From positions 1 to 44,675 of the IMG/VR virus record IMGVR_UViG_3300028920_000119: a DNA stretch of 44,675 bases. One strand, given 5' to 3'. Source of the DNA: a virus (Duplodnaviria > Caudoviricetes). The position numbers were made by a program, and so were the translations under genes. Shown here in pieces: positions 15,868 to 43,537 of the stretch; position 1 is the first letter of the stretch, and each line of letters begins with the position of its first letter. The notes under the pieces are model-generated. The model was not told where the DNA came from, did not search any database, and saw only the letters and a list, made by a program, of their open reading frames with translations.

Positions 15868-15896
15868 TTGACAGTAAATAGCCCAGACCCTATACT
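15868..15896 (+). promoter_or_regulatory. Strong sigma70-type early promoter
   Basis: TTGACA(15868)-17 nt-TATACT(15891), with an AT-rich UP-like tract AAATAAATTTGATTTTCTTT upstream. Confidence 0.9.
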
Positions 15897-15935
15897 TCAC
15901 CTATCGGCAATGACGCCGGACGGAAAGGACCCATT

Positions 15936-16715
15936 ATGGCATATACTCCAAGGCACCGACGGACTGAAAACAAGTCAACCCCCATCGCCGCCCTGAAGAG
16001 CCTCGCCGCGGCATACCGATCCCTGACGGACCTGTCCGGCCTGAAGCCAAGCATCAGCCTTGGCAACGTCAAGACCGGCTTCATTCCGAGCATCAGCCTG
16101 CCGCCGCTGTATACCTGCCCAAACTCCGCGGAGTGCCGCAAGTCCTGCTATGTTATGACGAACATGTTGCGAGGCCCTCACGCCGGAACGATCGCCAAGG
16201 CCTATGTCAAGAACTGGCTTCTCTTCCAAGCGGACGCCGACAAGTACTTCAGCGACGTCATAAGCCAACTGGCCAAGGTCTTCTCCAAGGGTATCAATAC
16301 CAAGGCCAAGAAGCGGCTGGCCAGCAGGAACACTAACCCGGCGGACATCTACACTCCTGACCTTGTCCGTTGGAACGTGAGCGGTGACCTGCCTAATCAG
16401 CGATACCTAGAGGGTGCCAAGGCCGTGGCCAAGGCGTTCCCGGGTGTCCGGTTCTTGATCTTCACGAAGAACTACGACACCGCCAGCCGGACCGGCTTGG
16501 ACTTCAGCGACCTGCCCGCCAATCTCGAAGTAGTGTTTAGTTGCTGGCCCGGTCAAGACCTGCCGACGGACACCAAAATACCAAGGGCTTGGCTGACCAC
16601 GGACGATAGAGCGGGCGACGAGCCCCGGACGGATTGCCTGATGAATTGCCAGACTTGCCGCAAGTGTTGGGCCCTGTCCGCCAACAAGCAGGCTATCGAA
16701 TTCGAAGTACACTAG
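15936..16715 (+). CDS. Gp88-like (radical-SAM-like, Cys-rich) phage protein
   Basis: SISLPP..TCPNSAECRKSCY (Cx5Cx3C), VRWNVSGD, FTK, C-terminal CLMNCQTCRKCW; GAAAGGA RBS. Confidence 0.8.
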   Translation: MAYTPRHRRTENKSTPIAALKSLAAAYRSLTDLSGLKPSISLGNVKTGFIPSISLPPLYTCPNSAECRKSCYVMTNMLRGPHAGTIAKAYVKNWLLFQADADKYFSDVISQLAKVFSKGINTKAKKRLASRNTNPADIYTPDLVRWNVSGDLPNQRYLEGAKAVAKAFPGVRFLIFTKNYDTASRTGLDFSDLPANLEVVFSCWPGQDLPTDTKIPRAWLTTDDRAGDEPRTDCLMNCQTCRKCWALSANKQAIEFEVH

Positions 16716-16722
16716 TCCCTCC

Positions 16723-16804
16723 GCCCGACGGCGTTCGGGCCGGTTCGACTCCGGCCCCGGGCATTGAACACCAACCGCCGCGAAGCGGCAGAAAGGACGT
16801 AGCA
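16723..16804 (+). ncRNA. tRNA-like intergenic repeat, copy 1
   Basis: GCCCG-ACGGCGTTC-GGGCCGG-TTCGACT-CCGGCCC-CGGGC-A, then TTGAACACCAACC, GCCGC-GAA-GCGGC hairpin and AGAAAGGA; next ATG 16805. Confidence 0.8.
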
Positions 16805-17560
16805 ATGATAGATTTCACGAACAAGTACCCGGTCACCCCCAAAGAGCGGACCCTTATCGGCTCCATCGTCAAGCGGGCGATTCACGAGCCCCAAACGGTC
16901 CTGCCGAAGAGCCGGACAGACATCCTCATAGCAGAGCTTGAGCTTACGGCGGCCCTCGCCGCGGCCCACGCCAACATTGAGGCTCTGGACCTGAACAGCA
17001 TGCTTGCCGCACCGCTGGAAGACCTGATGCACGACGTGGTCCGTATCCAACGCCATATCTCCAGCGATGGCACCAAGTTTGTTTCGCCCATCGGCCTGAA
17101 GTTCTCGATGCGGCGGGCACCTCTGCGGTACGTCTTGGCTGCCGACGTGGCTGGCCCGGAGAAGAGGTCCATCGAGCGACAACGCACCGGGCCCATGACG
17201 CTGGACGAGGCCCGCAAGGCAGTGATGGATATGTTCCCCGGGTCTGACGTCTCCTGCGGGCGAAAGACTGCCTCTCCGCAGGTGGTCAAGGTCTACTTGG
17301 CCCAGACGCCATACGGCGAGGGCCGTGTTAGCTCCGGCTTCATCTTCTCGATCGACAAGGCCGCCGACGAGCCCGAGGACGCCACAGACGTGGCGGAATG
17401 CTACCTGTGTGGCAAGACCCGGAGCAGGGCCGATCTTGCCTGCTTCGAGGACTCCAAGGGCTTCCACGAGGCCTGCATGGACTGCATAGCAGAGCAGGAA
17501 GAGGAAGACCGTATCTGCCGCGGCGAGATGGCCAAAGACCCGGCAGACTACCAAGAGTAG
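16805..17560 (+). CDS. Hypothetical protein with DUF6874-like N-terminal domain and C-terminal CxxC..CxxC
   Basis: True start ATG 16805 after the repeat SD; LDLNSMLAAP..DLMHDVVRIQRH; CYLC..CMDC. Confidence 0.7.
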   Translation: MIDFTNKYPVTPKERTLIGSIVKRAIHEPQTVLPKSRTDILIAELELTAALAAAHANIEALDLNSMLAAPLEDLMHDVVRIQRHISSDGTKFVSPIGLKFSMRRAPLRYVLAADVAGPEKRSIERQRTGPMTLDEARKAVMDMFPGSDVSCGRKTASPQVVKVYLAQTPYGEGRVSSGFIFSIDKAADEPEDATDVAECYLCGKTRSRADLACFEDSKGFHEACMDCIAEQEEEDRICRGEMAKDPADYQE

Positions 17561-17569
17561 ACGCATCCC

Positions 17570-17652
17570 GCCCGCTGGTGCCGTTGGGCCGGTTCGACTC
17601 CGGCCCCGGGCATTGAACACCAACCGCCGCGATGCGGCAGAAAGGACTCACC
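17570..17652 (+). ncRNA. tRNA-like intergenic repeat, copy 2
   Basis: GCCCG-CTGGTGCCGTT-GGGCCGG-TTCGACT-CCGGCCC-CGGGC-A, then TTGAACACCAACC, GCCGC-GAT-GCGGC and AGAAAGGACTCACC-ATG(17653). Confidence 0.85.
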
Positions 17653-18582
17653 ATGGCTAAGATCAACTACAGTGGAGCGGACATTGGCAAATGGGCGACA
17701 GCCAAGCATGGGATCATCCAGCAGGCTTCAGCCATCATCGAAGAGTACCGGGCCGACGGCTTGGACCTGACCCTGCGGCAGCTTTACTACCAGTTTGTGG
17801 CCCGCGGCATACTGGCCAACAAGCAGTCCAACTACAAGCGGCTTGGCACCATCATGAGCGATGCCCGGATGGCCGGTTTGATCGACTGGAATACGATCGT
17901 GGATCGGACTCGCAACGTGTATGGCACCCGGACGTGGAGCGATCCGGGCAGCTTCATTCACAGCATGCGGTACCAATTCGCCATTGACTGGTGGGAGGGT
18001 CAGGACAACTACGTTGAAGTCTGGGTTGAGAAGGAAGCCTTGGCTTCTGTGATCGGCCGGGCCGCCAGCCAGATGCGGGTGGACTACTTCCCATGCCGTG
18101 GCTACGTCAGCCAGTCAGCCCAGTGGCGAGCGGCCCGCCGTCTGGTGGACGCCCACAGGTCCGGCCGCAATCCGGTGATCATACACCTCGGTGACCATGA
18201 CCCGAGCGGCATCGACATGACCCGCGACATCTACGACAGGCTGGCGACGTTCTGCCAGCACGATGCAGGCTTCCAGCCGGAGGTCCGCCGCATCGCCCTG
18301 ACCATGGATCAGGTCGAGGCCCACACGCCGCCGCCAAACCCGGCGAAGCTGACCGACACCCGGGCCGCTGACTACGTCGCCAAGTACGGCCACGAGTCTT
18401 GGGAGCTTGACGCTCTGGACCCGCATACGCTCATAGACCTGATTACCAACGAGGTCGAGGGCCTCATCACTGACCCGCAGGCCTTTCAGGATCGGCGGGA
18501 TCTCGAAGTAGAGTACGAAGACAAGCTGGACAGTCTGGCTCAGGCTTGGCCGCAGGTTGAGCGATTTCTCGACACGCTGTAA
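17653..18582 (+). CDS. Topoisomerase VI-A/Spo11-like winged-helix + Toprim protein
   Basis: LTLRQLYY (candidate catalytic Tyr), VEVWVEK, RGY, LGDHDPSG (Toprim DxD), WELDAL. Confidence 0.8.
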   Translation: MAKINYSGADIGKWATAKHGIIQQASAIIEEYRADGLDLTLRQLYYQFVARGILANKQSNYKRLGTIMSDARMAGLIDWNTIVDRTRNVYGTRTWSDPGSFIHSMRYQFAIDWWEGQDNYVEVWVEKEALASVIGRAASQMRVDYFPCRGYVSQSAQWRAARRLVDAHRSGRNPVIIHLGDHDPSGIDMTRDIYDRLATFCQHDAGFQPEVRRIALTMDQVEAHTPPPNPAKLTDTRAADYVAKYGHESWELDALDPHTLIDLITNEVEGLITDPQAFQDRRDLEVEYEDKLDSLAQAWPQVERFLDTL

Positions 18583-18585
18583 CTC

Positions 18586-18668
18586 GCCCGCTGGTGCCGT
18601 TGGGCCGGTTCGACTCCGGCCCCGGGCATTGAACACCAACCGCCGCGAAGCGGCAGAAAGGACTCACC
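18586..18668 (+). ncRNA. tRNA-like intergenic repeat, copy 3
   Basis: Identical to copy 2 except the hairpin loop is GAA; next ATG 18669. Confidence 0.85.
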
Positions 18669-19229
18669 ATGATAGATTTCGGAAGCCTGAAGATAACGCG
18701 AGAGGAAGCCGACCTGATTTCCCAGATAGCCAAGCGGCTTGTCGAGATTCACCCGGGCCGGTTCCCTAAGTCGGCAGTGCTTGACTTGTCCATGAGCTTG
18801 GAGGCCTGCCACGCTCTGGCCTGCCCGCTCGATCTGGAGGCCATGGCCCTCGCTCCTGCCAGTGACCTCTTGCACGACGTCGTTGGCATACACCACCATC
18901 TGGACCGGGACACAGGGACCAGGCTGAAAGACTGCTTCGTGCCCCGGTACTCAACCAAGAGCCCGGAGCCGGGCACCTACTGGGCACGGTACAACGACAG
19001 CGGAGAGAATGCTCGGAGAGATTGGGAGCCAATCAGGATTCGCGGACCCTTCGGGGCCAATAAGACCTTGGGCATCGAGATGGACGGCACCTACTATGTG
19101 GACATGATTGGGTCCCAGTCTTCGGTACCGTGCCAAGCAGGACGAAACGTCCTGCAGCCGTACAGTTTTGGGAAGCCAACCGAGTGGTGGCTGGAGCTTG
19201 GTCCGAAGATCGAGGCACCGGCAGAGTAA
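18669..19229 (+). CDS. DUF6874-like domain protein
   Basis: MSLEACHALACPLDLEAM..DLLHDVVGIHHHLDRDTG..DCFVPRY; paralogous to the N-terminus of 16805..17560. Confidence 0.75.
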   Translation: MIDFGSLKITREEADLISQIAKRLVEIHPGRFPKSAVLDLSMSLEACHALACPLDLEAMALAPASDLLHDVVGIHHHLDRDTGTRLKDCFVPRYSTKSPEPGTYWARYNDSGENARRDWEPIRIRGPFGANKTLGIEMDGTYYVDMIGSQSSVPCQAGRNVLQPYSFGKPTEWWLELGPKIEAPAE

Positions 19230-19236
19230 CCACCAC

Positions 19237-19279
19237 TGAACACCAACCGCTGGCAGAGCCAGCAGAGAGGACGTGCAGC
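19237..19279 (+). promoter_or_regulatory. Partial repeat (3' module only: linker + hairpin + SD)
   Basis: TGAACACCAACC-GCTGGC-AGA-GCCAGC-AGAGAGGA; the hairpin sequence differs but pairing is kept; next ATG 19280. Confidence 0.75.
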
Positions 19280-19522
19280 ATGATGTTTGAAGACCTGATG
19301 GAAGTCAAAGAGACGGTGGAGGACCACCGCAGTGGAGTCAAGATCGAGAAGGCCATGTTCGACAAGGCCAAGGTCTTCGAGAGGCTTGAAGGTCTGGACC
19401 CCGAGGAGGCCGCCATCTACCTGAGTTCAGCAATCGGACTGCTGAACAGCGGGGCCCTGTCCGGGGCCAAGATCGAGGTGAATGAGACCACCGTGGTCCT
19501 GACGGAGAGGTCTAGGCTGTAA
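19280..19522 (+). CDS. Hypothetical protein (80 aa)
   Basis: ATG after the partial repeat SD; stop 3 nt before repeat copy 4. Confidence 0.7.
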   Translation: MMFEDLMEVKETVEDHRSGVKIEKAMFDKAKVFERLEGLDPEEAAIYLSSAIGLLNSGALSGAKIEVNETTVVLTERSRL

Positions 19523-19525
19523 CCC

Positions 19526-19611
19526 GCCCGCTGGTGCCGTTGGGCCGGTTCGACTCCGGCCCCGGGCATTGAACACCAACAGCCGCAACGCGGCAGAAAG
19601 GACTCACCACG
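19526..19611 (+). ncRNA. tRNA-like intergenic repeat, copy 4
   Basis: Same tRNA-like core as copies 2 and 3; hairpin GCCGC-AAC-GCGGC; next ATG 19612. Confidence 0.85.
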
Positions 19612-19785
19612 ATGAAACTTGCACTGTCTGACGAACGAAGTAGCTTGGCAATAGACCGTGATGCATTCAAGGTCAAGGTCACAGCCGAGCGGGAGAACAC
19701 CGTGCTTGAAGTAGAATTGACCCTCGTCGAGGCATTGGCGGCAGCCAAGGCTTTGGAGGAAGAGGCCGCTTGGCTCAGACGTTAG
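19612..19785 (+). CDS. Hypothetical protein (57 aa, not in the ORF track)
   Basis: MKLALSDERSSLAIDRDAFKVKVTAERENTVLEVELTLVEALAAAKALEEEAAWLRR; exactly fills the interval between repeats 4 and 5. Confidence 0.75.
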   Translation: MKLALSDERSSLAIDRDAFKVKVTAERENTVLEVELTLVEALAAAKALEEEAAWLRR

Positions 19786-19867
19786 CCCGCTGGTGCCGCA
19801 AGGGCCGGTTCGACTCCGGCCCCGGGCATTCTAACCAACAGCCGCAACGCGGCAGAAAGGACTCACA
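19785..19867 (+). ncRNA. tRNA-like intergenic repeat, copy 5
   Basis: First G is the last base of the upstream TAG; bulge CTGGTGCCGCAA; same T-arm core; linker TTCTAACCAACA; GCCGC-AAC-GCGGC; AGAAAGGA; next ATG 19868. Confidence 0.85.
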
Positions 19868-20071
19868 ATGAAGAGCATGCTGAACAAGTCAGCGACAAGG
19901 GCTGCTATCATGGCTGAGGTTGACCGGACAGGCAGGACCGGTGTGATCACGCAGATCGATCCTGCCGTGTTTGAGTACCTCGAATGGAAGTTGGGCATCG
20001 TCATACAGAACGTGGTCCATAACCACCCATCGGGATTCAAGACCCTGCAGCCGGGAGTAAGGAAGAGATGA
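19868..20071 (+). CDS. Hypothetical protein (67 aa)
   Basis: Starts after the repeat 5 SD; ATGA overlap with the next gene. Confidence 0.75.
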   Translation: MKSMLNKSATRAAIMAEVDRTGRTGVITQIDPAVFEYLEWKLGIVIQNVVHNHPSGFKTLQPGVRKR

Positions 20072-20986: not shown

Positions 20987-21015
20987 TTGACAAGAGAATA
21001 GCAGGGAAGTCTACT
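20987..21015 (+). promoter_or_regulatory. Putative second early promoter
   Basis: TTGACA(20987)-17 nt-TCTACT with an AT-rich upstream tract; context resembles the 15868 promoter (TCTTGACA..AATAGC..TACTT) but the -10 is imperfect. Confidence 0.5.
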
Positions 21016-23627: not shown

Positions 23628-23663
23628 CTTCAGGTGGGCTTTCGTCCTTTCCCCACCTGCAGG

Positions 23664-23692
23664 AGCCCCGCCTCGTTGGCGGGGCTTTTTTT
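23664..23692 (+). terminator. Intrinsic terminator of the early operon
   Basis: AGCCCCGCC-TCGTT-GGCGGGGCT followed by a T run; an extra hairpin CAGGTGGG/CCCACCTG precedes it at 23631-23659. Confidence 0.9.
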
Positions 23693-34006: not shown

Positions 34007-37000
34007 CTAATCCTCTTCGTCGCCAACGATCTTCTTAACAGTGTCATCTATTTCCTTAGCCACCGTCAAGGCCGGTATGCCAAGCTGGAATTCTGTTGCT
34101 GCGGCCAGAGCTTTGAGAGCTTCAAGGTAGTCGCCCTCAGAGAGTTCCTTGATCGGTGTGACAATCGCGTTGTCGATCTGCTGCAGCCAAGGCTGCGTCA
34201 TCTTCACGCCACCGAAGGTGCCGTACTTGAGCCCTCGTGGTACAGTGTTGGCCCCGGGCATCCAGGATGTCCAATAGCTCGTGCCGTAGTACAACAGGTC
34301 AGTCCACGTCAGTTCTTCCTCGTCGTCGCCTGAAGGCACTAGGAGGGCCACCATGAGCGGCGGTAAAAGGTTCTCGTAGACCACATGCCTGGCGTAGTCC
34401 CTTGTGGACATCTTGCCCTCTGTCCAAGCATTGAAGTGAGTCCTCATACGACTACCGTACTTCATGGTCCAGCCGACGAAGGGGCTGATGGTCCAGCGGA
34501 TCAACCGGCCAAGAGCCGTGTTCCTTTTGCCGCCAGTCTGCCACAGGTTCTTGAACATGGCCGAGGACACTGGTTGGGTCTCAGCCACTATGTTGTCTGC
34601 GTAGCTGATAGCCGCATCGGCATCGCCGGTGGCATCAAGCTTCTGGTGGAAGGCAGCTAACCAAGTGGGATAAGCACCCATGATGTCACCGAGCCGGATA
34701 TTGACCAGAGCCATGTGCTGCAGATCCCGGAGTGTCACCTCTCTGCCCCCCACCTTAACACTACGCTTGAACGGACTGACCTGCTCGTAGAGCCGAGCCA
34801 TCTCGACCTCGATCTTATGAGCCCTGTCCCGCATGAACGGAGACATGGCCTCGACCGTTGTCACTGATTGGTACGGATGGGTGATCATCCTGGCTACGCC
34901 TTTCATCGTCGGGAGGATACCCAACTTCGAAATCGTAGAAGTCAAAGAGAAGGCCTGCTTCACGCCGGTCTTCAACCTGGCACCAAGGGCCTTGATTATG
35001 GCCAGCTTCTGGAAGGTCGATAGAACTTGGTCCAGGTTGTCGGCCACTGTGGGCTCCGGCCGGGCAATCTGGGAGAGCCAGGGGATCAAAGTCTCATACC
35101 GCTCTGCTCCCATCAAATCTGTATAGGCGTCAGCCCAGTCAGAATGCTTGAAGACCTTGCTGATGTCAGTAAGGATCTCGCTGAGGTGGGTGTACCGGAT
35201 CGTATCCCTGATGTGGCGATACAGTGGGCTGATGTTCAGTAGTATGGGGTTGCTGGAGCCGGTACGCTTCTTGGTGAAGCTGTCACGCGGCTTGTTCATA
35301 TGGTGGACGGCAGCAGCTTCGTTCTTGAGTATGTCCGCTTCGGTAAACTCAGCCACCTTGCGAGAGGCCTTGGGGTCATACCGCAGAGGATAGTAGCCGC
35401 CCCGGAGGGTAACTGTCTTGCCATCCGCCGTCGCAAGCCTTATGGGCTCAGCGGCTATGCGATCCAGGTGGACACCATTCAGACTGAAGTATGCTGCTTC
35501 CATGTCCGGCCACAAAGTCTCAATTGCGTTCCAGATGTCTTGGACCAATTGAAGCTCATGAGAGGTCAGCATGGCAGCTACGGCTCGAAGCTCTGTGAGA
35601 TCCATGTCGAAGCCATTCTGCAGCGTTTTGATCCCTGTCTCCGAGCCCATGTTGAGGACGAAGGACAAGACCATTTCGCCGGTCCAACCCTTGTAGCCAG
35701 CCGCCCGAAGCACTCCCGGCAAAGGGGCTCCTGGGATCTGGAAGGGCCGATTGCCAAACCGTTCTCTAAACCGCCGGGCCAAGAGGCCCAGCCGATCGTT
35801 GATGTCAACCAAGTACTTCTTCTCGAAGGCATCGAGAGCCTTGATCGCATCCTTCTGCCTGTCGAAGATGGCTTGGTGGAGTTTCTCGTTGGGGCCCATC
35901 TCTCCGTCCGGCCCCAAGTTGGTGTAGCCGTCAGCCCGCTTCAGGTCGAACAGCATGTGCATCGTTTCTGCACCAAGGTTCCGCAGGAAGGACCGGAGCT
36001 TGTGCATCCGCGAGTGGTTGGTCAGCGGGTCCACCTTCCTACGATTGAGCATGGGCCTTGCGGCTTCGGTTGCCACCTCGTCAATCACCCGGGCCGCTTC
36101 ATTCTTCTGGAGCTTTACAGCGTTGCGTCCTCTGGCCCCTATGACCTTTATACCTTGCATCAGGTCGAAGAAGTCAGTCACCGGCATGGTCCTGTAGTCC
36201 TGCTGTTGCTGGAAGTTTTTAACAGCATTCGGCAGCGGCACACCGGCGGGGCCCGCCTCGATCTCGCCGAGGGTGCTGGCAAAAGCCTCTTCAGTGACAT
36301 GTGGAGCATCTGTCCCGGCCAGACCGGCCTTGAAGAGTAGGTGGCGTATTACTTGACGGTGCCTATCCAAAATGCTCTTGGACTTGGCCAGGGTCTTGGC
36401 TTGCCTGATGGCCTGTTCGTGCAGCCGTCTTACGCGGACTGCTTCGGTCACCAAGAAGTGATTGATCAGTTGCTTCTCTTTGGCTTCCTGGGCTGCTTCC
36501 CAATCTTCCTTTATCACAGCAGCCTCGAACTGCCTACCGTACTTGGCCTCGGCCCGGGAGTACAGGTCATATCGTATGGCTTCAGCAACAGTCTTGGTTT
36601 CCAGTATGGCTCGGGCCGAGTCCCGATAGGCCTTCTCTTCGTACCGCCGTCTCGACCGGCCAGTCTGCTCTGCTATGTGCTTGGCCACGAGTCTTGCTTC
36701 GCTGAGCAAGTACTTCCGTTGAGCATCGTTGTGGTAGGCTTCCTCGCCGGGCAAGAACTCATCCCTAGCCAAAGTCTCCCGGATCTGTTCCCGGCGTTCG
36801 TCTATGAGTTCATCCACCCGGGTCTCGATAGCTGTAGCCCTCTTGGGTGACTTGGCTATGTCGGCAATCAAAGCCTCTTCGCTGTCATACTCCAACTCCA
36901 AAGCAAGCTCAGTGAGATCCAAAGTACCGTTGTTGGTCACCAGCCTCGGGTGGAGGGCCTTCATGGCGTTGTAAGCGTCTTCGCCGTACTCGGCCTTGAT

Positions 37001-40000
37001 CCTGTCAGCGTTAAGGCTACCACGGTCTATAGCAATCTGAACGGCTCTGTAGACCGGCATCGAGTCAACCTGACTGGCTGCCAGGCTCTGTATCCGTTCA
37101 CGCATACCGTCGGTAGCCAAGAAGGTTTTCAAAGCTCTCCGGACATGATCCTGCAGGGCCCTCTCTCGTGCTGCTACATGTAGTCTCTGCAGGTGTGCCT
37201 TCTGCCTTGCGTCACCGGGCATGGACCCCACAAGGGATTCATTGGCAGCATAGTAAAACCGCACTTCCTTCATCTCTGCTTCAGAGGCCAGCATGCTATC
37301 GAAGATGCCCCTTAGCGTGTCGTTCATACGGACGTCTTCCATACCACCAATTTGCCTGTAGAGATTCAGCATCCAGGTGCGGTAGTTCCGGAAGCTTTCA
37401 ACCAGCTTGGTAGCAGGAGCCTTGCCCTCGATCAGGTAGCCTTCGAATGCCTTGGCTATGAACTCGTGGGCCTCAGTGCCTAGCTCGGAATCACCAGTCA
37501 ACTGCCGAATGGCAACAAGATCTTTGGCCTCACGATCTGAAGCGGTGCCATCCGCGACACGCCGTTTCATGTCTTCCAGGAATATGTGAGCCAACTCATG
37601 AACGAAAGTTGTTACGTCCGCGGACTCGAACAACGTGATGATGGTCTCGGTGGGGGTAAACTGCACCCGACCTCTGGGGCGTTTCCGGTTGTTCTCTTCG
37701 GCCGCCTGATACAGTGTTAGACCATCGTGGGTGATCTTCGCCTGCAGATCCGGTGTCAGCTTTACAACCCACTGATCACCTAAGGACTCGAAACCCTTAA
37801 GAGGAGCCTGTTCGAGAACAGCATCAGTCTTCATGGACTTCAGCCACTTGCGGACTTGAGCGGGCAAGACCGTATCGTAGAAGATACGGAAGCCCTCCCC
37901 GCCCATGCGGAGGCCTCGTCCATCAAGTGTACGCTCCACACCTCTGGTTGTGTTGAAGGCGTTTGCGTTAAGTACTCGCTCGGCTATGTCCTTTCCGAGA
38001 TACGTCGCCAGAGACTTCTCACTCCTCGCCGTGAACTCCGCTTTCTTGGTGGACTGCAAAGCTGTCTGACCAGAGTTGTCGTATGCCACGTCATAACCTT
38101 CTACATGCACACTTCCATCAGGCCTTGTAACAGCAACTATCCGGTTCACACCCTTAAGCTTGTCCCAACGCTCACCGTGGATATTGCCGTTGGACCAAGC
38201 TATGGCCTCGTACCCTCCGTCAAGGGCTTTCAATACCATCTGCTTGAAGAGTATCAGAGACCAGGCATCCTTGAACGGACTCTCAGGAGCCCCCTTCCGC
38301 AAACGCATGTAGTTGGCAAGAGCAAACCTTGCTTGGTCCGCACTGGGAAGGCCTTCTATAGCGGTGAGGAAGTCTAAGATCTGTTTCTTGAGGTTAGCGT
38401 CGCTGATATAAAGTTCACTAGCGAAGTCCGGCAGGGAAGAAGGGTCGCCCCGCCCATCGTCTTGGTACTCCTTGTCCAGTTCCTTCTTAACATTCAGAAA
38501 GCCCAGGTAGGCTTGGGACCTGTTATTGTCTCTGTGTACAGCTTCTTCGGCGGTGAAGTACCCGAAGTCCCTTCCCTTCTGATGCAAGTCTGACTGAAGC
38601 TCTTCGAGGAACTGTGTGTGGTGTTCCTGGCCGCCTATTACAGCCGTCTTATCTGACACCCGAGTGAAACCTATGACGTTGGGTATCTGGTCCCAGTGGC
38701 CTGAGAATATCCAGGGTTCTGCGAGCCAAGTATCATCTATGGTCAGAAGGTACTCATCGTAATTGGCATTCAGCCTCGTAGGTCCACTACCATGCTCTGC
38801 ACCAATGGTGTACTCCATATACTTAACGTCTTCACCGTTGCTCAGGCGTTCCTGGTACATGCGGTCTATTCCAGCCTCCATGTCCCGGTCGTAGTAGTCC
38901 ATGAAGATGTCCCCCTCTATGGCATCGGCGGCTGTTTCGAAGCTTGAGTACTCAGTCTCTTCACCGGTTTCTTCATTACGCAGCATCACTCTGAAGTTGA
39001 GATCAGTGCCAAGCAGATAGTCATATTCGGGGTCAGGGCCAAACAACCTAAGCTGCGAATCGGTATTGGTGTATGCACCCCTCGGCCGTAGAGGATAGTC
39101 GTAGTCATCATAGACAACGATCTTCACTTCGCCTTCAGACTCAGAATCTATGGTGTACTCCTTCTCCCTGAGAGGCATGACTTCTTCCACCCATCCGGGC
39201 CTGGCTTTGGTTGGCATAAGCCGAACAACCTCAGCGTCTGTCAGCTTCCTTCCCAGACGAACTTCTAACTCCTGACGGAGAAGAGCTTCTGCTTGGTGAG
39301 CGAGCATAGAGTACCCTCGGTTGGGCTGAAACAGCCTTCGTCCGTCAAGGTACACAGCCTTTTGGTTTGGTATGTCTGGGCCGCCCCTCTCTTCATAGTC
39401 AGTATTGTCTGTGTGGTAAGAGATGTCGAAGGACTGAAGGTTTCCCTCTGAGTCGGGGAACTCCACAGTGCTGTACTGGTTTACTATATCCACCGTGTGT
39501 TCTGGAGCAGCATCCCAAGACGTATTGGGATAGTATTCTATGTCACCCATGTCAGGGCCCGAAGACCCACCTGTAATGTCAGAGTGCGTCCGGAACTCCA
39601 ACTCCACAAAGCTCTCTGCTACCAAGTCAATGATCTGGTCTCTGGTGATCGTTTCGTTTTCCGGCGTGTCTTCTATAAGACTCTTCAACGCAGGGATAGC
39701 TTTGTACTCTTCACCTGAGTAGCTCTTGGACTTACGGAGTGCAGCCAGCATCTGCTTTGGTGTACCCTTGGCCTGAGGAATATCCAAGGCTGCCTGATGA
39801 AGACCGGAGAAGAAACCACCATACCTCGGGGCTCTCTTGACAATCTCGCCACCTTGGTAATAGATCTGCTCGTAGATATTGGCGTTCTCGGTATCAAAGT
39901 TAATGCTCTTAGTCGACTTCACCTGCTTGGGGTCGAAGACGATGTAGTGAGCAGTGTCGGCATCAAGTGCCATGAATGGGAACTTATCTGAGACTGTGTA

Positions 40001-43000
40001 ATCGATGTAGCCATCGAAGCCCAGTTCCTTAAGAGCCCGGTTGATTATCTCGTAAGCAGCCGTGTACGGCGTACCGGGAATGGTGACGTCAGCCATACGA
40101 AGCTCGGCAGCGAGCAGCTTAAGAGCTATCCCTGCTTTCATGCCATCCTGTGGGAAAGCATGCATGAGGAACTCGCCTACGCCGGACAGGTCGTAAGCCA
40201 TGTAGTCCATGGCTATCTCACGAGCCTTTTCAACAAGGTCAAGCAGAATGCCGGAAGGCTCTGTGCCGTGGTCGGCCGCAAAGCGTTCTGCCGCCAGGGC
40301 CATGACTTCGTCATCCAAGACATTGGTTTTGTCGCCACCTTCGTCTTCCAGAAGCTCGTCATAGGCTTTGTCATAGTACTCCTGGAACTCGGGGTCGTTC
40401 TCAAGCTGGTAGGTGTAATCGAAGAATGTGGGGTTGTCCCCACCAATGATCACAGGGTTCTCAAGCTTTAGGTAGACTTCGAGCAGGACACCATCTTCTT
40501 GGTAGTCCAACTCTTCCTTAGCCCTCCGCATAGCCTCGTCCCAGTCATTGAGGTTTATGTCTTCATTGATAAGTTCTTCGGCTCTGCCACGGAGCTTAGC
40601 TTGGACATCACCTCCGGAGATATGGGCATAGTTGGCGTAAGCGTCTTCTTCCTTGTTGGTGAAGTAGAACCCCGGGCCCAGATTCGTCTCAGGGCCACTG
40701 GCTTCCGGCTTGAAGACCGAGAAGTCCCGCATGGTGCCGTGAAAGACCTTAAGCGGGTTGCCGTCTTCATCCACGACCACACTGGTACCGAACCATCGTT
40801 CGAGCTTTTCATTCCTGGTTATGTCACCGTTCTCGTCGTAGTCCACACCGGACTGGAAGACCTCGATGATATCCTTGACCGTCTGGACAGAATCAGCTTC
40901 TGTGGCTCTTGCAGCCCAAGCTTCTGCTCCCTCATCAAGATAGTCCTTGAGCTTCGTGAGATCCTGCACAGCCCTGTCGATGTCCAGTTCACCAAGAGCG
41001 ACGGCCGCGTCCCGGGCCAGGCGTTGCACCTCGTTAAACGCTGGCATGTTCCTGCGGGCCTCAGCGTACTCAGCGAGAGCAGCCATCAGTTCGGCTCGGT
41101 ATGCCTCCTCGGTCACACCCCTCACCTCGGCGTTGTTCTTGATGTTCTCCTCGAACTCTTTCATGAACCCATACGGTTGGGTAAGAGACCCGAGGATCTT
41201 CTCCACCTTATCCAGAACAATGTTGTAGCCTGCCGTCTTGTTGAACTTGAGGTCTTCCGTCATACGGTGGATCAAATCACCTGTATGCTCTATAGGCTTA
41301 AAGAGGACACCAGCCATGAGGTTTTGTACCTTGAGCATAGCAGCCTCAGGCACACCCTTCTGTTGGGTGGCTATGGTGTCATAGAAGTCGAGCCTCTCGT
41401 CCATTTCCATCTGTGACGGATGCTTCGCTCTTTCAGCCCTCTGGCGTCCTTGGACTTTGACACCATCTTGGTCGACAACCAAACGAAGCTTCAATGAATC
41501 GATCCACTCCTTGGGTGTCGTGCCCATCTCTGCCGCCACCTTGCTCGCACGAGCCCATAGCACACCCAGGTGTGCGTCGGCCTGCCCGGGGGTAAGGCCA
41601 GCACCACCCTCGTCCTTGGGGGTAACAAGTTGTTCACGGAGGTTCATCAGTTGACTTGGAAGTCTGTTCGTTGCCAACAGATCAGCAAACTCTTCCTGAA
41701 CCCGCTTCGCCTCGGCCCGGGCCCGCTCCACTAACTCTGCTTGCTCGTGGAGAGTAAGACCGTCAGCCTCAAGTCTCAACCTGGGTGTGAGCAGGGCTCC
41801 AGCATCTGTTCCGGCCAGCTTCGTAGATAGCTCTGATATGCTCAGTGTTATGTCCCCACCGGTAGCCTCTGCTTCGACTAGCTGGTCCTGCAGACTAAGA
41901 GACGCCACCACCTCACGAGCTACTTCCGGGGCCGCCTGCTGGAACTCTTTGAAGTCTTCACTGCTGATATAAGCAATGTCCTCTATCCCATTCTGTTCGA
42001 GAACCGTTTGGACAAAAGCTGTGTGCTTATCCGGAGACAGCTTGTGAAGCTTGTTCAGTTCTACAGCCTTGCCCAGATCAGTGAGGAAGGCCAAATTGCT
42101 CTTAAGGTGCTGTTGGTGGCGTATTGCCCGGGGAGAGGACGCAGCCGCACCTATGAGCGATAGGGGCAGCACAACCGCTCCCTCATACAGACCGTCCTTG
42201 ATGGTCGAAGGCAGGTTATCAAACACCCGGTCAACAATGTCCGACACGGACCCACCCTTGGCTGACTCCTCGGCGTAAATTCGAGTCATGTCCTCGGGGA
42301 ACTGCTGAAGAAACTCAGTACCATATTCCGTCACCAGCACACCAAGAAGTTCTTGGGCCAGCCGCCTTGATCCCGGTGCGGTCTTGAACCACTTCACCCA
42401 TTTGCCAAGAGCTACAAACTCCAGGGCCGACTGGACAAGAGCGTTCGCTGTAGCAGCCCGGATTGCTAAGTCTTCCGGCACACCCTGCAGGGTTAGCTGC
42501 TCGTAGGTGGTCCCAAAGATATAGCCCCCCATAACCGAGGCACCGGCCGTAGGAGATCCAGTGAAGTAGGTAGCAGCCAGGACACCTGCAAACTGGGGTA
42601 CGGTCTCAGCCACGCTGCCCAGATACTTTGTAAAGCCCTTCCTCTCAGCGAGCATGTCGGGTTCCAGGATCTCAGCCTTTGATAACCCATCGAGGAGATT
42701 TGCTGCTGTAGCAAAAGTGACATCAGAGCCCTTCTCTACCAATGTCCTGGCATTTAAGTAAAACTGGACGTCTCGCGGCTGGAACGCTTGCTCCCTATCC
42801 TGGCGAACGAAGAGACTAACAGGTCCTGGCATACCTAGTCCCAATTGCACCGCCCTCAGAGAAATTGCTCCGGTCTTTGCCAGACCCCGGACAAAACTCT
42901 TCCCACCCTCTTTGAACTTCTCCCAGACATACCGCTGTGGAGAAGCCGAAAAGCTGTGAGCCAGATCCTCGACACGAGCCAGGAGTGCGGCATCGTCCTT

Positions 43001-43537
43001 GGCAAGCACGGCGTTATCAGGGTCGGTCATGAAAGCAAGAGTCTTGGGGTACTTATACTCGCCCTCTTCGTCTTTCTCAGTCAGAGTCTTTATGACTTCG
43101 AAGGCTTCCTGCCAATCACTAGCCTCCTCCTGGTTCTTAAAGACCATGTCCTTGGGGATGCCCTGAATCTGGGCAACCTGTTGGACCTTCGCCGCCACCT
43201 CAGGCTTGATACCTCTCACTGTACGAAGAGCCCAGTCCAAATGCCCGCGGTCTGCAGTGACAGCGAGATCCAGAGCCTCTTCGTCGGGCATCTCTATCAG
43301 CATTTGACGGAAAGGCTCTACGCCGCCTTCGGCTTCTGTATCTCTGAAGAGGCGAGGGGTGTAGCCTTTCCCTGCTTCAAGCGGATCAACATCCGCGACG
43401 TATTCAGACCAACCCTTAGGGACACCAGAGTCCTCAGACTGAACGAACGTGGGCTCCTGTACAGGAGCCGTGACCTGACTGACTGTGTCTTCGACAGCGG
43501 GATCAGGAGTGCCGGATATCTCTTTAGGTACTTTCAT
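34007..43537 (-). CDS. Giant (3176 aa) internal virion / large polyvalent protein with ART-like and HExxH metallopeptidase-like domains
   Basis: T7 gp16-like position; WFG.S.VVDEDGNPLKVFHGT..GFYFT..VYLKLENP..GFDG..YIVFDPKQVKS (ART-PolyVal pattern); FVHELAH..HEFIAKAFEGYL. Confidence 0.8.
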   Translation of the reverse strand: MKVPKEISGTPDPAVEDTVSQVTAPVQEPTFVQSEDSGVPKGWSEYVADVDPLEAGKGYTPRLFRDTEAEGGVEPFRQMLIEMPDEEALDLAVTADRGHLDWALRTVRGIKPEVAAKVQQVAQIQGIPKDMVFKNQEEASDWQEAFEVIKTLTEKDEEGEYKYPKTLAFMTDPDNAVLAKDDAALLARVEDLAHSFSASPQRYVWEKFKEGGKSFVRGLAKTGAISLRAVQLGLGMPGPVSLFVRQDREQAFQPRDVQFYLNARTLVEKGSDVTFATAANLLDGLSKAEILEPDMLAERKGFTKYLGSVAETVPQFAGVLAATYFTGSPTAGASVMGGYIFGTTYEQLTLQGVPEDLAIRAATANALVQSALEFVALGKWVKWFKTAPGSRRLAQELLGVLVTEYGTEFLQQFPEDMTRIYAEESAKGGSVSDIVDRVFDNLPSTIKDGLYEGAVVLPLSLIGAAASSPRAIRHQQHLKSNLAFLTDLGKAVELNKLHKLSPDKHTAFVQTVLEQNGIEDIAYISSEDFKEFQQAAPEVAREVVASLSLQDQLVEAEATGGDITLSISELSTKLAGTDAGALLTPRLRLEADGLTLHEQAELVERARAEAKRVQEEFADLLATNRLPSQLMNLREQLVTPKDEGGAGLTPGQADAHLGVLWARASKVAAEMGTTPKEWIDSLKLRLVVDQDGVKVQGRQRAERAKHPSQMEMDERLDFYDTIATQQKGVPEAAMLKVQNLMAGVLFKPIEHTGDLIHRMTEDLKFNKTAGYNIVLDKVEKILGSLTQPYGFMKEFEENIKNNAEVRGVTEEAYRAELMAALAEYAEARRNMPAFNEVQRLARDAAVALGELDIDRAVQDLTKLKDYLDEGAEAWAARATEADSVQTVKDIIEVFQSGVDYDENGDITRNEKLERWFGTSVVVDEDGNPLKVFHGTMRDFSVFKPEASGPETNLGPGFYFTNKEEDAYANYAHISGGDVQAKLRGRAEELINEDINLNDWDEAMRRAKEELDYQEDGVLLEVYLKLENPVIIGGDNPTFFDYTYQLENDPEFQEYYDKAYDELLEDEGGDKTNVLDDEVMALAAERFAADHGTEPSGILLDLVEKAREIAMDYMAYDLSGVGEFLMHAFPQDGMKAGIALKLLAAELRMADVTIPGTPYTAAYEIINRALKELGFDGYIDYTVSDKFPFMALDADTAHYIVFDPKQVKSTKSINFDTENANIYEQIYYQGGEIVKRAPRYGGFFSGLHQAALDIPQAKGTPKQMLAALRKSKSYSGEEYKAIPALKSLIEDTPENETITRDQIIDLVAESFVELEFRTHSDITGGSSGPDMGDIEYYPNTSWDAAPEHTVDIVNQYSTVEFPDSEGNLQSFDISYHTDNTDYEERGGPDIPNQKAVYLDGRRLFQPNRGYSMLAHQAEALLRQELEVRLGRKLTDAEVVRLMPTKARPGWVEEVMPLREKEYTIDSESEGEVKIVVYDDYDYPLRPRGAYTNTDSQLRLFGPDPEYDYLLGTDLNFRVMLRNEETGEETEYSSFETAADAIEGDIFMDYYDRDMEAGIDRMYQERLSNGEDVKYMEYTIGAEHGSGPTRLNANYDEYLLTIDDTWLAEPWIFSGHWDQIPNVIGFTRVSDKTAVIGGQEHHTQFLEELQSDLHQKGRDFGYFTAEEAVHRDNNRSQAYLGFLNVKKELDKEYQDDGRGDPSSLPDFASELYISDANLKKQILDFLTAIEGLPSADQARFALANYMRLRKGAPESPFKDAWSLILFKQMVLKALDGGYEAIAWSNGNIHGERWDKLKGVNRIVAVTRPDGSVHVEGYDVAYDNSGQTALQSTKKAEFTARSEKSLATYLGKDIAERVLNANAFNTTRGVERTLDGRGLRMGGEGFRIFYDTVLPAQVRKWLKSMKTDAVLEQAPLKGFESLGDQWVVKLTPDLQAKITHDGLTLYQAAEENNRKRPRGRVQFTPTETIITLFESADVTTFVHELAHIFLEDMKRRVADGTASDREAKDLVAIRQLTGDSELGTEAHEFIAKAFEGYLIEGKAPATKLVESFRNYRTWMLNLYRQIGGMEDVRMNDTLRGIFDSMLASEAEMKEVRFYYAANESLVGSMPGDARQKAHLQRLHVAARERALQDHVRRALKTFLATDGMRERIQSLAASQVDSMPVYRAVQIAIDRGSLNADRIKAEYGEDAYNAMKALHPRLVTNNGTLDLTELALELEYDSEEALIADIAKSPKRATAIETRVDELIDERREQIRETLARDEFLPGEEAYHNDAQRKYLLSEARLVAKHIAEQTGRSRRRYEEKAYRDSARAILETKTVAEAIRYDLYSRAEAKYGRQFEAAVIKEDWEAAQEAKEKQLINHFLVTEAVRVRRLHEQAIRQAKTLAKSKSILDRHRQVIRHLLFKAGLAGTDAPHVTEEAFASTLGEIEAGPAGVPLPNAVKNFQQQQDYRTMPVTDFFDLMQGIKVIGARGRNAVKLQKNEAARVIDEVATEAARPMLNRRKVDPLTNHSRMHKLRSFLRNLGAETMHMLFDLKRADGYTNLGPDGEMGPNEKLHQAIFDRQKDAIKALDAFEKKYLVDINDRLGLLARRFRERFGNRPFQIPGAPLPGVLRAAGYKGWTGEMVLSFVLNMGSETGIKTLQNGFDMDLTELRAVAAMLTSHELQLVQDIWNAIETLWPDMEAAYFSLNGVHLDRIAAEPIRLATADGKTVTLRGGYYPLRYDPKASRKVAEFTEADILKNEAAAVHHMNKPRDSFTKKRTGSSNPILLNISPLYRHIRDTIRYTHLSEILTDISKVFKHSDWADAYTDLMGAERYETLIPWLSQIARPEPTVADNLDQVLSTFQKLAIIKALGARLKTGVKQAFSLTSTISKLGILPTMKGVARMITHPYQSVTTVEAMSPFMRDRAHKIEVEMARLYEQVSPFKRSVKVGGREVTLRDLQHMALVNIRLGDIMGAYPTWLAAFHQKLDATGDADAAISYADNIVAETQPVSSAMFKNLWQTGGKRNTALGRLIRWTISPFVGWTMKYGSRMRTHFNAWTEGKMSTRDYARHVVYENLLPPLMVALLVPSGDDEEELTWTDLLYYGTSYWTSWMPGANTVPRGLKYGTFGGVKMTQPWLQQIDNAIVTPIKELSEGDYLEALKALAAATEFQLGIPALTVAKEIDDTVKKIVGDEED

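What the first reader, a model, noticed from the sequence alone, without database searches (positions are those of the whole stretch)
16723..19867. Early genes punctuated by repeated anticodon-less mini-tRNA elements (candidate tRNA-punctuation system)
SEEN: five copies (starts 16723, 17570, 18586, 19526, 19785) of GCCCG-[9-12 nt]-GGGCCGG-TTCGACT-CCGGCCC-CGGGC-A. Each begins 0-9 nt after a stop codon and ends about 40 nt before the next ATG. All paired bases and the 7-nt loop are invariant; only the bulge varies. The fold is a 12-bp helix (5+7) capped by a canonical T-loop (GGTTCGACTCC) with an unpaired 3' A, and the bulge always contains GG. KNOWN: the tRNA acceptor+T stack is 12 bp plus a discriminator base; D-loop GG docks on the T-loop; RNase P and RNase Z read this top half, not the anticodon. 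From memory, bacterial tRNA-Leu often begins GCCCGG.TGGTG and ends GCCGGTTCGA.TCCGGCCCCGGGCACCA, and LeuRS relies on A73 rather than the anticodon. INFERENCE: these are tRNA-Leu-like minihelices lacking the D, anticodon and variable arms and an adjacent CCA. They may let host tRNA-processing enzymes cut the early transcript into stabilised monocistronic mRNAs (analogous to mitochondrial tRNA punctuation, or to RNase III sites in T7 early RNA). They may also release ~42-nt tRNA mimics acting as decoys for tRNA-targeting defence toxins. I do not recognise a described phage element with this architecture.
Basis: partly seen in the sequence, partly recalled or inferred. Interest (0 to 1): 0.92.

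Follow-up and report, generated by a model that had tools for sequence, protein, structure and literature searches.

The report
Mini-tRNA punctuation marks in phage operons
A marine-sediment phage places five ~42-base look-alikes of the top half of a tRNA between its early genes; the same conserved fold, absent from Rfam, fills the gene gaps of unrelated phages and separates guide RNAs in viral VIPR arrays, so it likely tells the host's tRNA-trimming enzymes where to cut long transcripts, though no cut has been shown.

Summary
The five elements are real (5 matches, 0 in shuffles) and belong to a large RNA family with no Rfam 15 match. With only the inner 7 pairs fixed, 78 of 94 viral hits complete a 12- or 13-pair stack (control 5%) and none is longer. 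A D-loop-like GG sits in the bulge, and CCA is nearly absent. The family fills 16 of 16 early gene gaps in cultured Gordonia phage VanLee, occurs in actinomycete integrative elements, and separates VIPR guide RNAs where other arrays use hammerhead ribozymes. Best reading (0.65): cis signals for host RNase P and/or RNase Z, like plant mitochondrial t-elements. This is inferred; there are no RNA data. The tRNA-Leu identity is not supported, because the discriminator varies. 'Stabilised' mRNAs are doubtful, because an RNase P cut would leave almost no 3' UTR. In context, competing folds score as well. The scan noted this family before on other DNA (e.g. e1-5891154, e1-5795439, e1-6055562). Those notes cite a preprint on bacterial minimal tRNA mimics ('tLRNA') that I could not read. 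Verdict: new variant of a known kind.

The parts
15868..15896 (+). sigma-70-like promoter (TTGACA-17-TATACT) heading the early operon
   Evidence: 11 of 12 consensus matches; consensus match only
15903..15935 (+). first leader: small hairpin + SD, no mini-tRNA (predicted primary 5' end)
15936..16715 (+). ORF, Pfam GP88 family
   Evidence: E 2.5e-20
16723..16763 (+). mini-tRNA copy 1 (5 bp, 9-nt bulge, 7 bp, T-loop, A73)
   Evidence: model R1 35.4 bits
16764..16804 (+). leader module (A/C-rich, 5-bp hairpin, SD)
16805..17560 (+). ORF with N-terminal DUF6874
   Evidence: (scanned from 16808), E 3.6e-7
17570..17612 (+). mini-tRNA copy 2 (11-nt bulge)
17613..17652 (+). leader module
17653..18582 (+). 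ORF, PHROG 6247 ('DNA topoisomerase'); Topo VI-A/Toprim-like lead
18586..18628 (+). mini-tRNA copy 3 (the ARAGORN 'tRNA-Glu' call 18538-18628 borrows coding sequence and is judged false)
18629..18668 (+). leader module
18669..19229 (+). ORF with DUF6874
   Evidence: E 9.9e-23
19237..19279 (+). leader module without mini-tRNA; its hairpin has a different, still paired 6-bp stem
19280..19522 (+). 80-aa ORF, no family
19526..19568 (+). mini-tRNA copy 4
19569..19611 (+). leader module
19612..19785 (+). 57-aa ORF; last base of its stop codon is G1 of copy 5
19785..19828 (+). mini-tRNA copy 5 (12-nt bulge)
19829..19867 (+). leader module
19868..20071 (+). 67-aa ORF, no family
23661..23689 (+). intrinsic-terminator-like site closing the rightward gene run

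Best explanation
The five repeats are members of a widespread, covarying family of ~40-45-nt tRNA top-half mimics in phages and integrative elements, and they likely act as cis signals at which the host's tRNA-maturation endonucleases would cut a long early transcript into pieces. Shown by comparison: a T-loop caps a stack of 12 pairs (13 with a -1:73 pair) split 5+7, 6+6 or 7+5 by a bulge carrying a D-loop-like GG; elements lie on the sense strand just behind a stop codon or between guide RNAs. Inferred: the GG docks on the T-loop to mimic the tRNA elbow; RNase P would cut before G1; RNase Z would cut after N73, giving each downstream cistron the same ~40-nt hairpin+SD leader that the first gene gets from the promoter; the freed piece would be a by-product. 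Which enzyme matters most, and whether cutting raises or shortens expression, is open.
For: (1) Ruler. With only the inner 7 pairs fixed by the search pattern, 78 of 94 non-tRNA hits give a total helix of 12 or 13 and none 14 or more; swapped-upstream control 5%. In the pooled set, 96 of 105 form all five outer pairs (control 22%) and 78 of 105 are all Watson-Crick (control 3.8%); G-U pairs 28 against A-C 1. The T-loop-to-5'-end distance of 12 bp is the RNase P measuring rule, and acceptor/T-stem/T-loop hairpins are cleaved by E. coli RNase P (PMC11143913). (2) Elbow. GG at bulge offset 1-6 in 89 of 96 (shuffled bulges 49%); the bulge consensus resembles the D-loop of the Rfam tRNA consensus; several VanLee copies carry a 3-bp mini D-arm around UGGU or CGGU. 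(3) Ends. Purine at +1 in 86 of 96; C75 in 5, CC in 3, CCA in 3 of 96; CCA in 0 of 46 in an independent metagenome set. CC or CCA blocks B. subtilis RNase Z, which binds T-arm and acceptor stem and needs neither D-arm nor anticodon (PMC7479834). (4) Context. An upstream same-strand ORF stops within 80 nt in 111 of 157 viral elements (mirror strand 37). 16 of 16 gaps over 30 nt in the VanLee early arm hold an element. (5) Guide arrays. Elements separate GGY/NN tracts beside Vipr homologues (36% identity to SUSP1 Vipr; RAMP fold) in L042, L439, Trine and MakoManhole. First or last guides can lack one, so it is not an obligatory guide part. Other VIPR arrays are interspersed with hammerhead ribozymes (10.64898/2026.04.26.720920).
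Against: No RNA ends, no enzyme assay. With flanks, the MFE of all five window copies is a different fold (often the bulge pairing with the 3' trailer or leader), z-scores -0.06 to -1.6; from G1 to the SD, 3 of 5 keep the tRNA-like fold. RNase P determinants are not optimal: U at -1 in only 11 of 96, no RCCA, and a -1:73 pair possible in 38 of 96. C74, present in 54 of 96, may hinder RNase Z (cytidines after the discriminator suppress it). A 5' cut would leave upstream cistrons with 0-9 nt of 3' UTR, which is hard to square with stabilisation. The element is dispensable in places: ORF 19280 lacks it, 0 of 21 terminase-related loci and 0 of 4 loci related to ORF 17653 had a significant match (many are short), and the SUSP1 array has none. 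Counts are not phylogenetically independent, and the search patterns fix the T-loop.
Confidence: 0.65

Rival explanations
1. The element is not cut at its 5' side. It stays on the upstream mRNA or guide as a tRNA-like 3' cap that blocks exonucleases and might receive CCA, like plant-virus tRNA-like structures or REP hairpins.
For: Tight placement behind stop codons, most within about 10 nt. In Theia it follows gene 88 with no gene for about 800 nt. In L437 each guide is followed by an element or a terminator; in MakoManhole one follows the last guide. RNase P features at -1 and 74-76 are weak.
Against: A barrier needs neither a fixed 12-pair length nor an elbow. In L439 the last guide has no element, and in Trine and MakoManhole one precedes the first guide. 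A 12-bp T-loop hairpin with a single-stranded leader is an RNase P substrate in vitro.
Confidence: 0.14
2. The element binds a protein or the ribosome on the uncut transcript and acts as a translation enhancer, antiterminator or loading site.
For: Always sense-strand and usually 20-130 nt before an SD and start. A competing fold that uses the bulge and trailer could make it a switch coupled to the ribosome at the nearby stop (inference).
Against: It also lies between non-coding guides and downstream of a glutamine-II riboswitch in seven loci. No common partner gene was seen. ORF 19280 keeps the SD leader without it.
Confidence: 0.08
3. The main product is the freed mini-tRNA, a decoy for host defence toxins or enzymes that act on tRNA 3' ends or elbows.
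For: High copy number in early operons: 5 here, 16 in VanLee, 8 or more in G009. Plant t-elements are released and gain C/A (PMC1920247).
Against: No anticodon, no encoded CCA, variable discriminator and acceptor pairs. Copies are spread one per junction rather than arrayed. Use in VIPR arrays and integrative elements is simpler to explain as punctuation.
Confidence: 0.07
4. The repeats work at DNA level, as recombination sites that shuffle, duplicate or delete early-gene cassettes; the tRNA look is a relic of attachment-site origin.
For: The window's copies are near-identical over about 98 nt, two cassettes carry DUF6874 paralogues, and one contig in run X3 joins 17585 back to 16737.
Against: VanLee's 16 copies differ widely in sequence but keep the fold. 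Compensatory changes and G-U over A-C point to an RNA on the sense strand. The X3 joint lies in a 47-nt repeat, longer than the assembly word, and may be an assembly artefact. Recombination is more likely how copies spread than what they are for.
Confidence: 0.05

Closest known systems
Plant mitochondrial t-elements and mitochondrial tRNA punctuation (PMC1920247, passages; PMC4394434, passages)
   Same: tRNA-like structures with a GGTTCRANYCC T-arm whose ends coincide with mRNA termini made most likely by RNase P and RNase Z.
   Different: Those are organellar, about 74-nt degenerate cloverleaves with mapped ends. These are 40-45 nt, bacterial-virus encoded, used serially at most junctions, and have no mapped ends.
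Bacterial minimal tRNA mimics 'tLRNA' (DUF2693-FD RF02926, salivarius-1 RF03030, skipping-rope RF02924); name and grouping come from earlier scan notes, preprint not read
   Same: Reported as small anticodon-less top-half tRNA mimics in bacteria; RF02926 has 49 positions, a similar size.
   Different: RF02926 and RF03030 give no match in this genome even at E 10, and no such family appeared in six other Rfam scans. Whether that preprint already covers this architecture or a punctuation role is unchecked.
Synthetic acceptor/T-stem/T-loop model substrates of RNase P (PMC11143913, section 4 and passages)
   Same: 12-bp stack capped by a T-loop, cleaved at the canonical site.
   Different: The models are unbulged and carry RCCA; the natural family adds a GG bulge and avoids CC.
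mascRNA/menRNA (RF01684; PMC10424219, passages)
   Same: Small tRNA-like piece cut out of a longer RNA. Three VanLee elements give weak sub-threshold hits (E 0.06-0.84).
   Different: Vertebrate, keeps a short anticodon-like arm, one per transcript.
Hammerhead-interspersed VIPR arrays (10.64898/2026.04.26.720920, section 9 and figure legends)
   Same: A processing module between adjacent guide RNAs.
   Different: Self-cleaving ribozyme there; here a mini-tRNA that would need host enzymes. The word tRNA does not occur in the three VIPR preprints' indexed text; their supplements were closed.
T7 early RNase III sites; P1/P7 C4 and P4 CI RNAs as RNase P substrates (recalled; C4 seen only as a reference title)
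   Same: Phage RNAs shaped for a host processing nuclease.
   Different: RNase III sites are long duplexes; C4 and CI are single regulatory RNAs. phi80 M3 RNA was checked and is not this element.

Membership tests
canonical tRNA (incl. tRNA-Leu) | cloverleaf with anticodon arm | tested here: not met
   No Rfam tRNA hit; the one ARAGORN call borrows coding sequence; the 41-44 nt leave no room.
canonical tRNA (incl. tRNA-Leu) | fixed A73 Leu identity and CCA | tested here: not met
   A73 in all five window copies but in 42 of 96 in the family; CCA in 3 of 96.
t-element-like processing signal | T-arm motif within an acceptor/T stack of 12 bp | tested here: met
t-element-like processing signal | position at boundaries of functional RNA units, sense strand | tested here: met
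t-element-like processing signal | RNA ends mapped at the element's 5' or 3' boundary; cleavage by RNase P or Z | not testable with these tools
   No RNA run was listed for the window.
t-element-like processing signal | D-loop/T-loop elbow contact | tested here: inconclusive
   GG conserved (89 of 96) and mini D-arm variants exist; the tertiary contact itself was not modelled.
tLRNA Rfam families RF02926, RF03030 | match to the family covariance model | tested here: not met
   0 matches at E<=10
tLRNA Rfam family RF02924 (skipping-rope) | match to the family covariance model | tested here: not met
   Not among hits of the full Rfam scans
tLRNA as defined in the preprint | structural definition given there | not tested
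intrinsic terminator | hairpin followed by a U run on the sense strand | tested here: not met
   No + strand terminator call at any copy.
VIPR system (for related loci only, not the window) | Vipr RAMP homologue plus GGY/NN tracts | tested here: met
   L042 and L439: 36% identity to YP_009199429.1; GGY at period 5. The L437 protein was not compared.

The most novel reading that the evidence does not exclude
Bacterial viruses and integrative elements across several phyla use a ~42-nt minimal tRNA as a general, host-enzyme-driven punctuation mark that excises individual mRNAs and individual guide RNAs from polycistronic precursors: a bacterial counterpart of mitochondrial tRNA punctuation and a natural version of tRNA-spaced multiplex guide arrays, not described in the literature searched.
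Probability: 0.45. Interest if true: 0.85.

Novelty: new variant of a known kind. Interest (0 to 1): 0.72.

Why it matters
If true, RNase P and RNase Z have hundreds to thousands of unrecognised natural substrates in phage early operons. Gene-by-gene processing would be a common hidden layer of phage gene control, and some VIPR systems would mature their guides with host tRNA enzymes. The element would be among the smallest natural elbow mimics and a compact part for splitting transcripts or guide arrays in bacteria. It is testable now in cultured phages with laboratory hosts (Gordonia phages VanLee, Trine, MakoManhole; mycobacteriophage Theia).

Tried and rejected
Rfam: no gathering-score hit in the window. 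No relevant family at loose E-values in the early region or in 60 related loci, apart from partial tmRNA T-arm scores and weak mascRNA scores. The ARAGORN tRNA-Glu call was rejected. phi80 M3 RNA, a recalled candidate, is a terminator-like hairpin, not this element. Mycobacteriophage L5 has two T-loop hairpins near its right end, but R1 scores them only partially (E 0.03, 0.12), so they were not counted. A recalled idea that the bulge derives from the initiator-tRNA variable loop found no match in 466 loci and was dropped. Sequencing runs: no RNA holder listed; three DNA runs as contigs only, which cannot show RNA ends. Relatives found through terminase and the Toprim-like gene had no element, so the lineage gave no local covariation. 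An alignment-based locus search for Vipr relatives could not be run. Paper searches that found no description of this element. The VanLee announcement, read whole, does not mention the repeats. PMC10690425 reports five tRNA-like viral candidates that overlap ARAGORN calls; its 10,006 models were not inspected and could include this family. The supplement of PMC5737381 could not be read. covariation is on sequences pre-selected for pairing and is not relied on.
Full report
Setting. The window is a 44.7-kb virus record, 97% complete, with a 209-nt end repeat. It has a T7-like head-tail connector, GP7 capsid, family A polymerase, SNF2 helicase and primase-polymerase. Three marine-sediment DNA runs hold it. 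The host is unknown. A promoter-like site at 15868-15896 and a terminator-like site at 23661-23689 bracket a rightward run of small, mostly unknown genes.

The T-arm core occurs five times, against none in 100 shuffles. Each copy is a 5-bp outer helix, a 9-12 nt bulge with GG, a 7-bp inner helix, the loop TTCGACT and an unpaired A. The full repeat is about 98 nt, because a leader module follows: an A/C-rich stretch, a small hairpin and an SD. That module also stands alone before ORF 19280, and a similar hairpin+SD follows the promoter. The unit is therefore stop codon, mini-tRNA, leader, gene. A covariance model built from 24 non-window sequences scores the five copies at 32-35 bits (E below 1e-6); the next hit has E 0.8. 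There is no sixth copy.

It is a large family. Pattern scans found the architecture in unrelated viruses. A pattern fixing only the bulge TGGT, three inner pairs, the T-loop and A73 hits an estimated 540 stretches of IMG/VR. Of 123 matches in the 120 loci returned, 6 lay in ARAGORN tRNA calls; 110 of the other 117 paired all three free inner positions, and 81 also had a 5-6 bp outer helix. The same pattern hits about 2,900 metagenome stretches, where 46 of 110 distinct non-tRNA matches had the full fold. A related pattern hits about 210 genome stretches. Of the 80 named loci there, 35 were flagged as elements: 33 Actinomycetota and 2 Parabacteroides; the pattern favours GC-rich stems. Six of 60 sampled genomes of one Streptomyces-centred genus set had a copy. 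One such locus carries GntR, FtsK, Prim-Pol, DUF3631 and DUF2637 genes, as an actinomycete integrative element would (that label is my reading).

The unbiased test. I fixed only the inner seven pairs and the loop (124 loci, 99 distinct matches with enough flank, 5 dropped as ARAGORN calls). Total helix length was 12 in 43 and 13 in 35 of 94, shorter in 6, absent in 10, and never 14 or more; swapping upstream flanks gave 12-13 in 5%. Several of the ten 'absent' cases have an extra hairpin in a longer bulge. Pooled (105 distinct elements), 96 formed all five outer pairs. G-U outnumbered A-C 28 to 1. GG lay early in the bulge in 89 of 96 (shuffled 49%). Position +1 was a purine in 86, N73 varied (A 42, U 32, G 15, C 7), N74 was a pyrimidine in 80, N75 was U in 61 and C in 5, and CCA occurred 3 times. 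These sequences are related in groups, so the printed p-values overstate the case. The bulge resembles the D-loop of the Rfam tRNA consensus, and VanLee variants fold a 3-bp arm around it.

Context. A same-strand ORF ends within 80 nt upstream in 111 of 157 viral elements (mirror 37), mostly within about 10 nt; a downstream SD-led ORF was found in 59 (mirror 14). Clusters recur: 9 model matches in G009, 5 in G014, 4 in G005, one per gene junction. In cultured Gordonia phage VanLee all 16 gaps over 30 nt between genes 162 and 133 hold one by inspection; the model scores 14 at E 0.003 or better. Most share the window's layout: element, hairpin, A/C-rich stretch, SD. Other cultured phages have similar sequences. 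In seven loci a glutamine-II riboswitch lies within a few hundred bases upstream.

The most telling context is non-coding. In L042 eight elements bound seven GGY/NN tracts; in L439 three lie between four; in L437 two between three. Trine and MakoManhole have three each. The neighbouring proteins of L042 and L439 are 36% identical to SUSP1 Vipr (accession from 10.64898/2026.10.15.759431, passages), and the L439 model matches Csm3/Cas7-type chains. The VIPR preprint lists staggered and hammerhead-interspersed arrays (section 9 and passages). So the element stands where a cutting device is needed. SUSP1's own array has none.

Mechanism. Shown: fold conservation, fixed length, strand and position. 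From papers: RNase P measures 12 bp from the T-loop and cleaves acceptor/T hairpins (PMC11143913, section 4 and passages); RNase Z binds T-arm and acceptor stem and is blocked by CC or CCA (PMC7479834, passages); t-elements with the same T-arm motif form mRNA ends in plant mitochondria (PMC1920247, passages; punctuation model in PMC4394434, passages). Inferred: the family is cut by one or both enzymes. The avoidance of C75 points to RNase Z, the +1 purine and ruler to RNase P. Cutting at both sides would give each downstream cistron the leader that the first gene has from the promoter.

Against. There are no RNA data. With flanks, folding prefers other pairings in all five copies and is no better than shuffles, though such models ignore tertiary contacts. 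U at -1 is rare (11 of 96), C74 is common, and a -1:73 pair is possible in 38. A 5' cut would leave upstream genes nearly without a 3' UTR, so the outcome may be timed decay rather than stabilisation. Some elements have no gene close downstream (Theia), which fits a 3'-cap role too. Relatives found through terminase (0 of 21 loci) and the Toprim-like gene (0 of 4) had no match. One contig joins copy 2 back to copy 1; this may be recombination or an assembly artefact.

Known or new. No Rfam 15 family matches. Nine paper searches found no description. I also saw passages of 10.64898/2026.10.21.760802, PMC7302621, PMC10424219 and PMC10690425, the whole of PMC8320454, and no matching passage in PMC12191101. 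Earlier notes of this scan report the same kind of element in other phages and in VIPR arrays. They are unchecked leads, and I had reached the VIPR link before seeing them. They name a preprint grouping three Rfam families as minimal bacterial tRNA mimics; I could not retrieve it, and it, the closed bioRxiv supplements and the Fremin models may bear on novelty. It works like a t-element; it is not a tRNA and not a member of those Rfam families. Verdict: real, a new variant of a known kind, interest 0.72.

Noticed in passing
window 19237-19279: Leader module without the mini-tRNA; its hairpin stem differs in sequence but stays paired, which suggests the hairpin is itself selected.
   Followed up: partly
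window 20987-21015: A second TTGACA with a weaker -10-like hexamer before the 21212 gene run; not flagged by the promoter scan. Genes after 20068 have no mini-tRNA.
   Followed up: no
window 16737-17585 (run X3) and 16769-19552 (run X1): One contig joins copy 2 back to copy 1; in X1 the cassettes between repeats have depth 25-31 against 22 for the backbone. Possible repeat-mediated duplication or circle, or artefact.
   Followed up: partly
window 15936-16715; L174 664-1473: The first early gene is GP88 family; mycobacteriophage L5 has a degenerate T-loop hairpin directly before its gene 88.
   Followed up: partly
window 34007-43537 (-): 3,176-aa ORF beside the tail-fibre gene, not examined.
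   Followed up: no
L060, L122, L126, L183, L194, L208, L283: Glutamine-II riboswitch upstream of the element; in most of these a further conserved structured sequence without Rfam match follows it. Some variants insert an extra hairpin in the bulge.
   Followed up: partly
L444 2591-3394 (Gordonia phage Trine gene 40): The annotated start lies inside the VIPR guide array; the SD-led start near 2889 looks like the real one.
   Followed up: partly
L442 16208-17824: VanLee also encodes a Ro-like RNA-binding protein a few kb from its 16 elements; any link is untested.
   Followed up: no
L467 1074-1454 (-): A stand-alone RapZ C-terminal-domain gene directly follows an element in an actinomycete integrative element.
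   Followed up: partly
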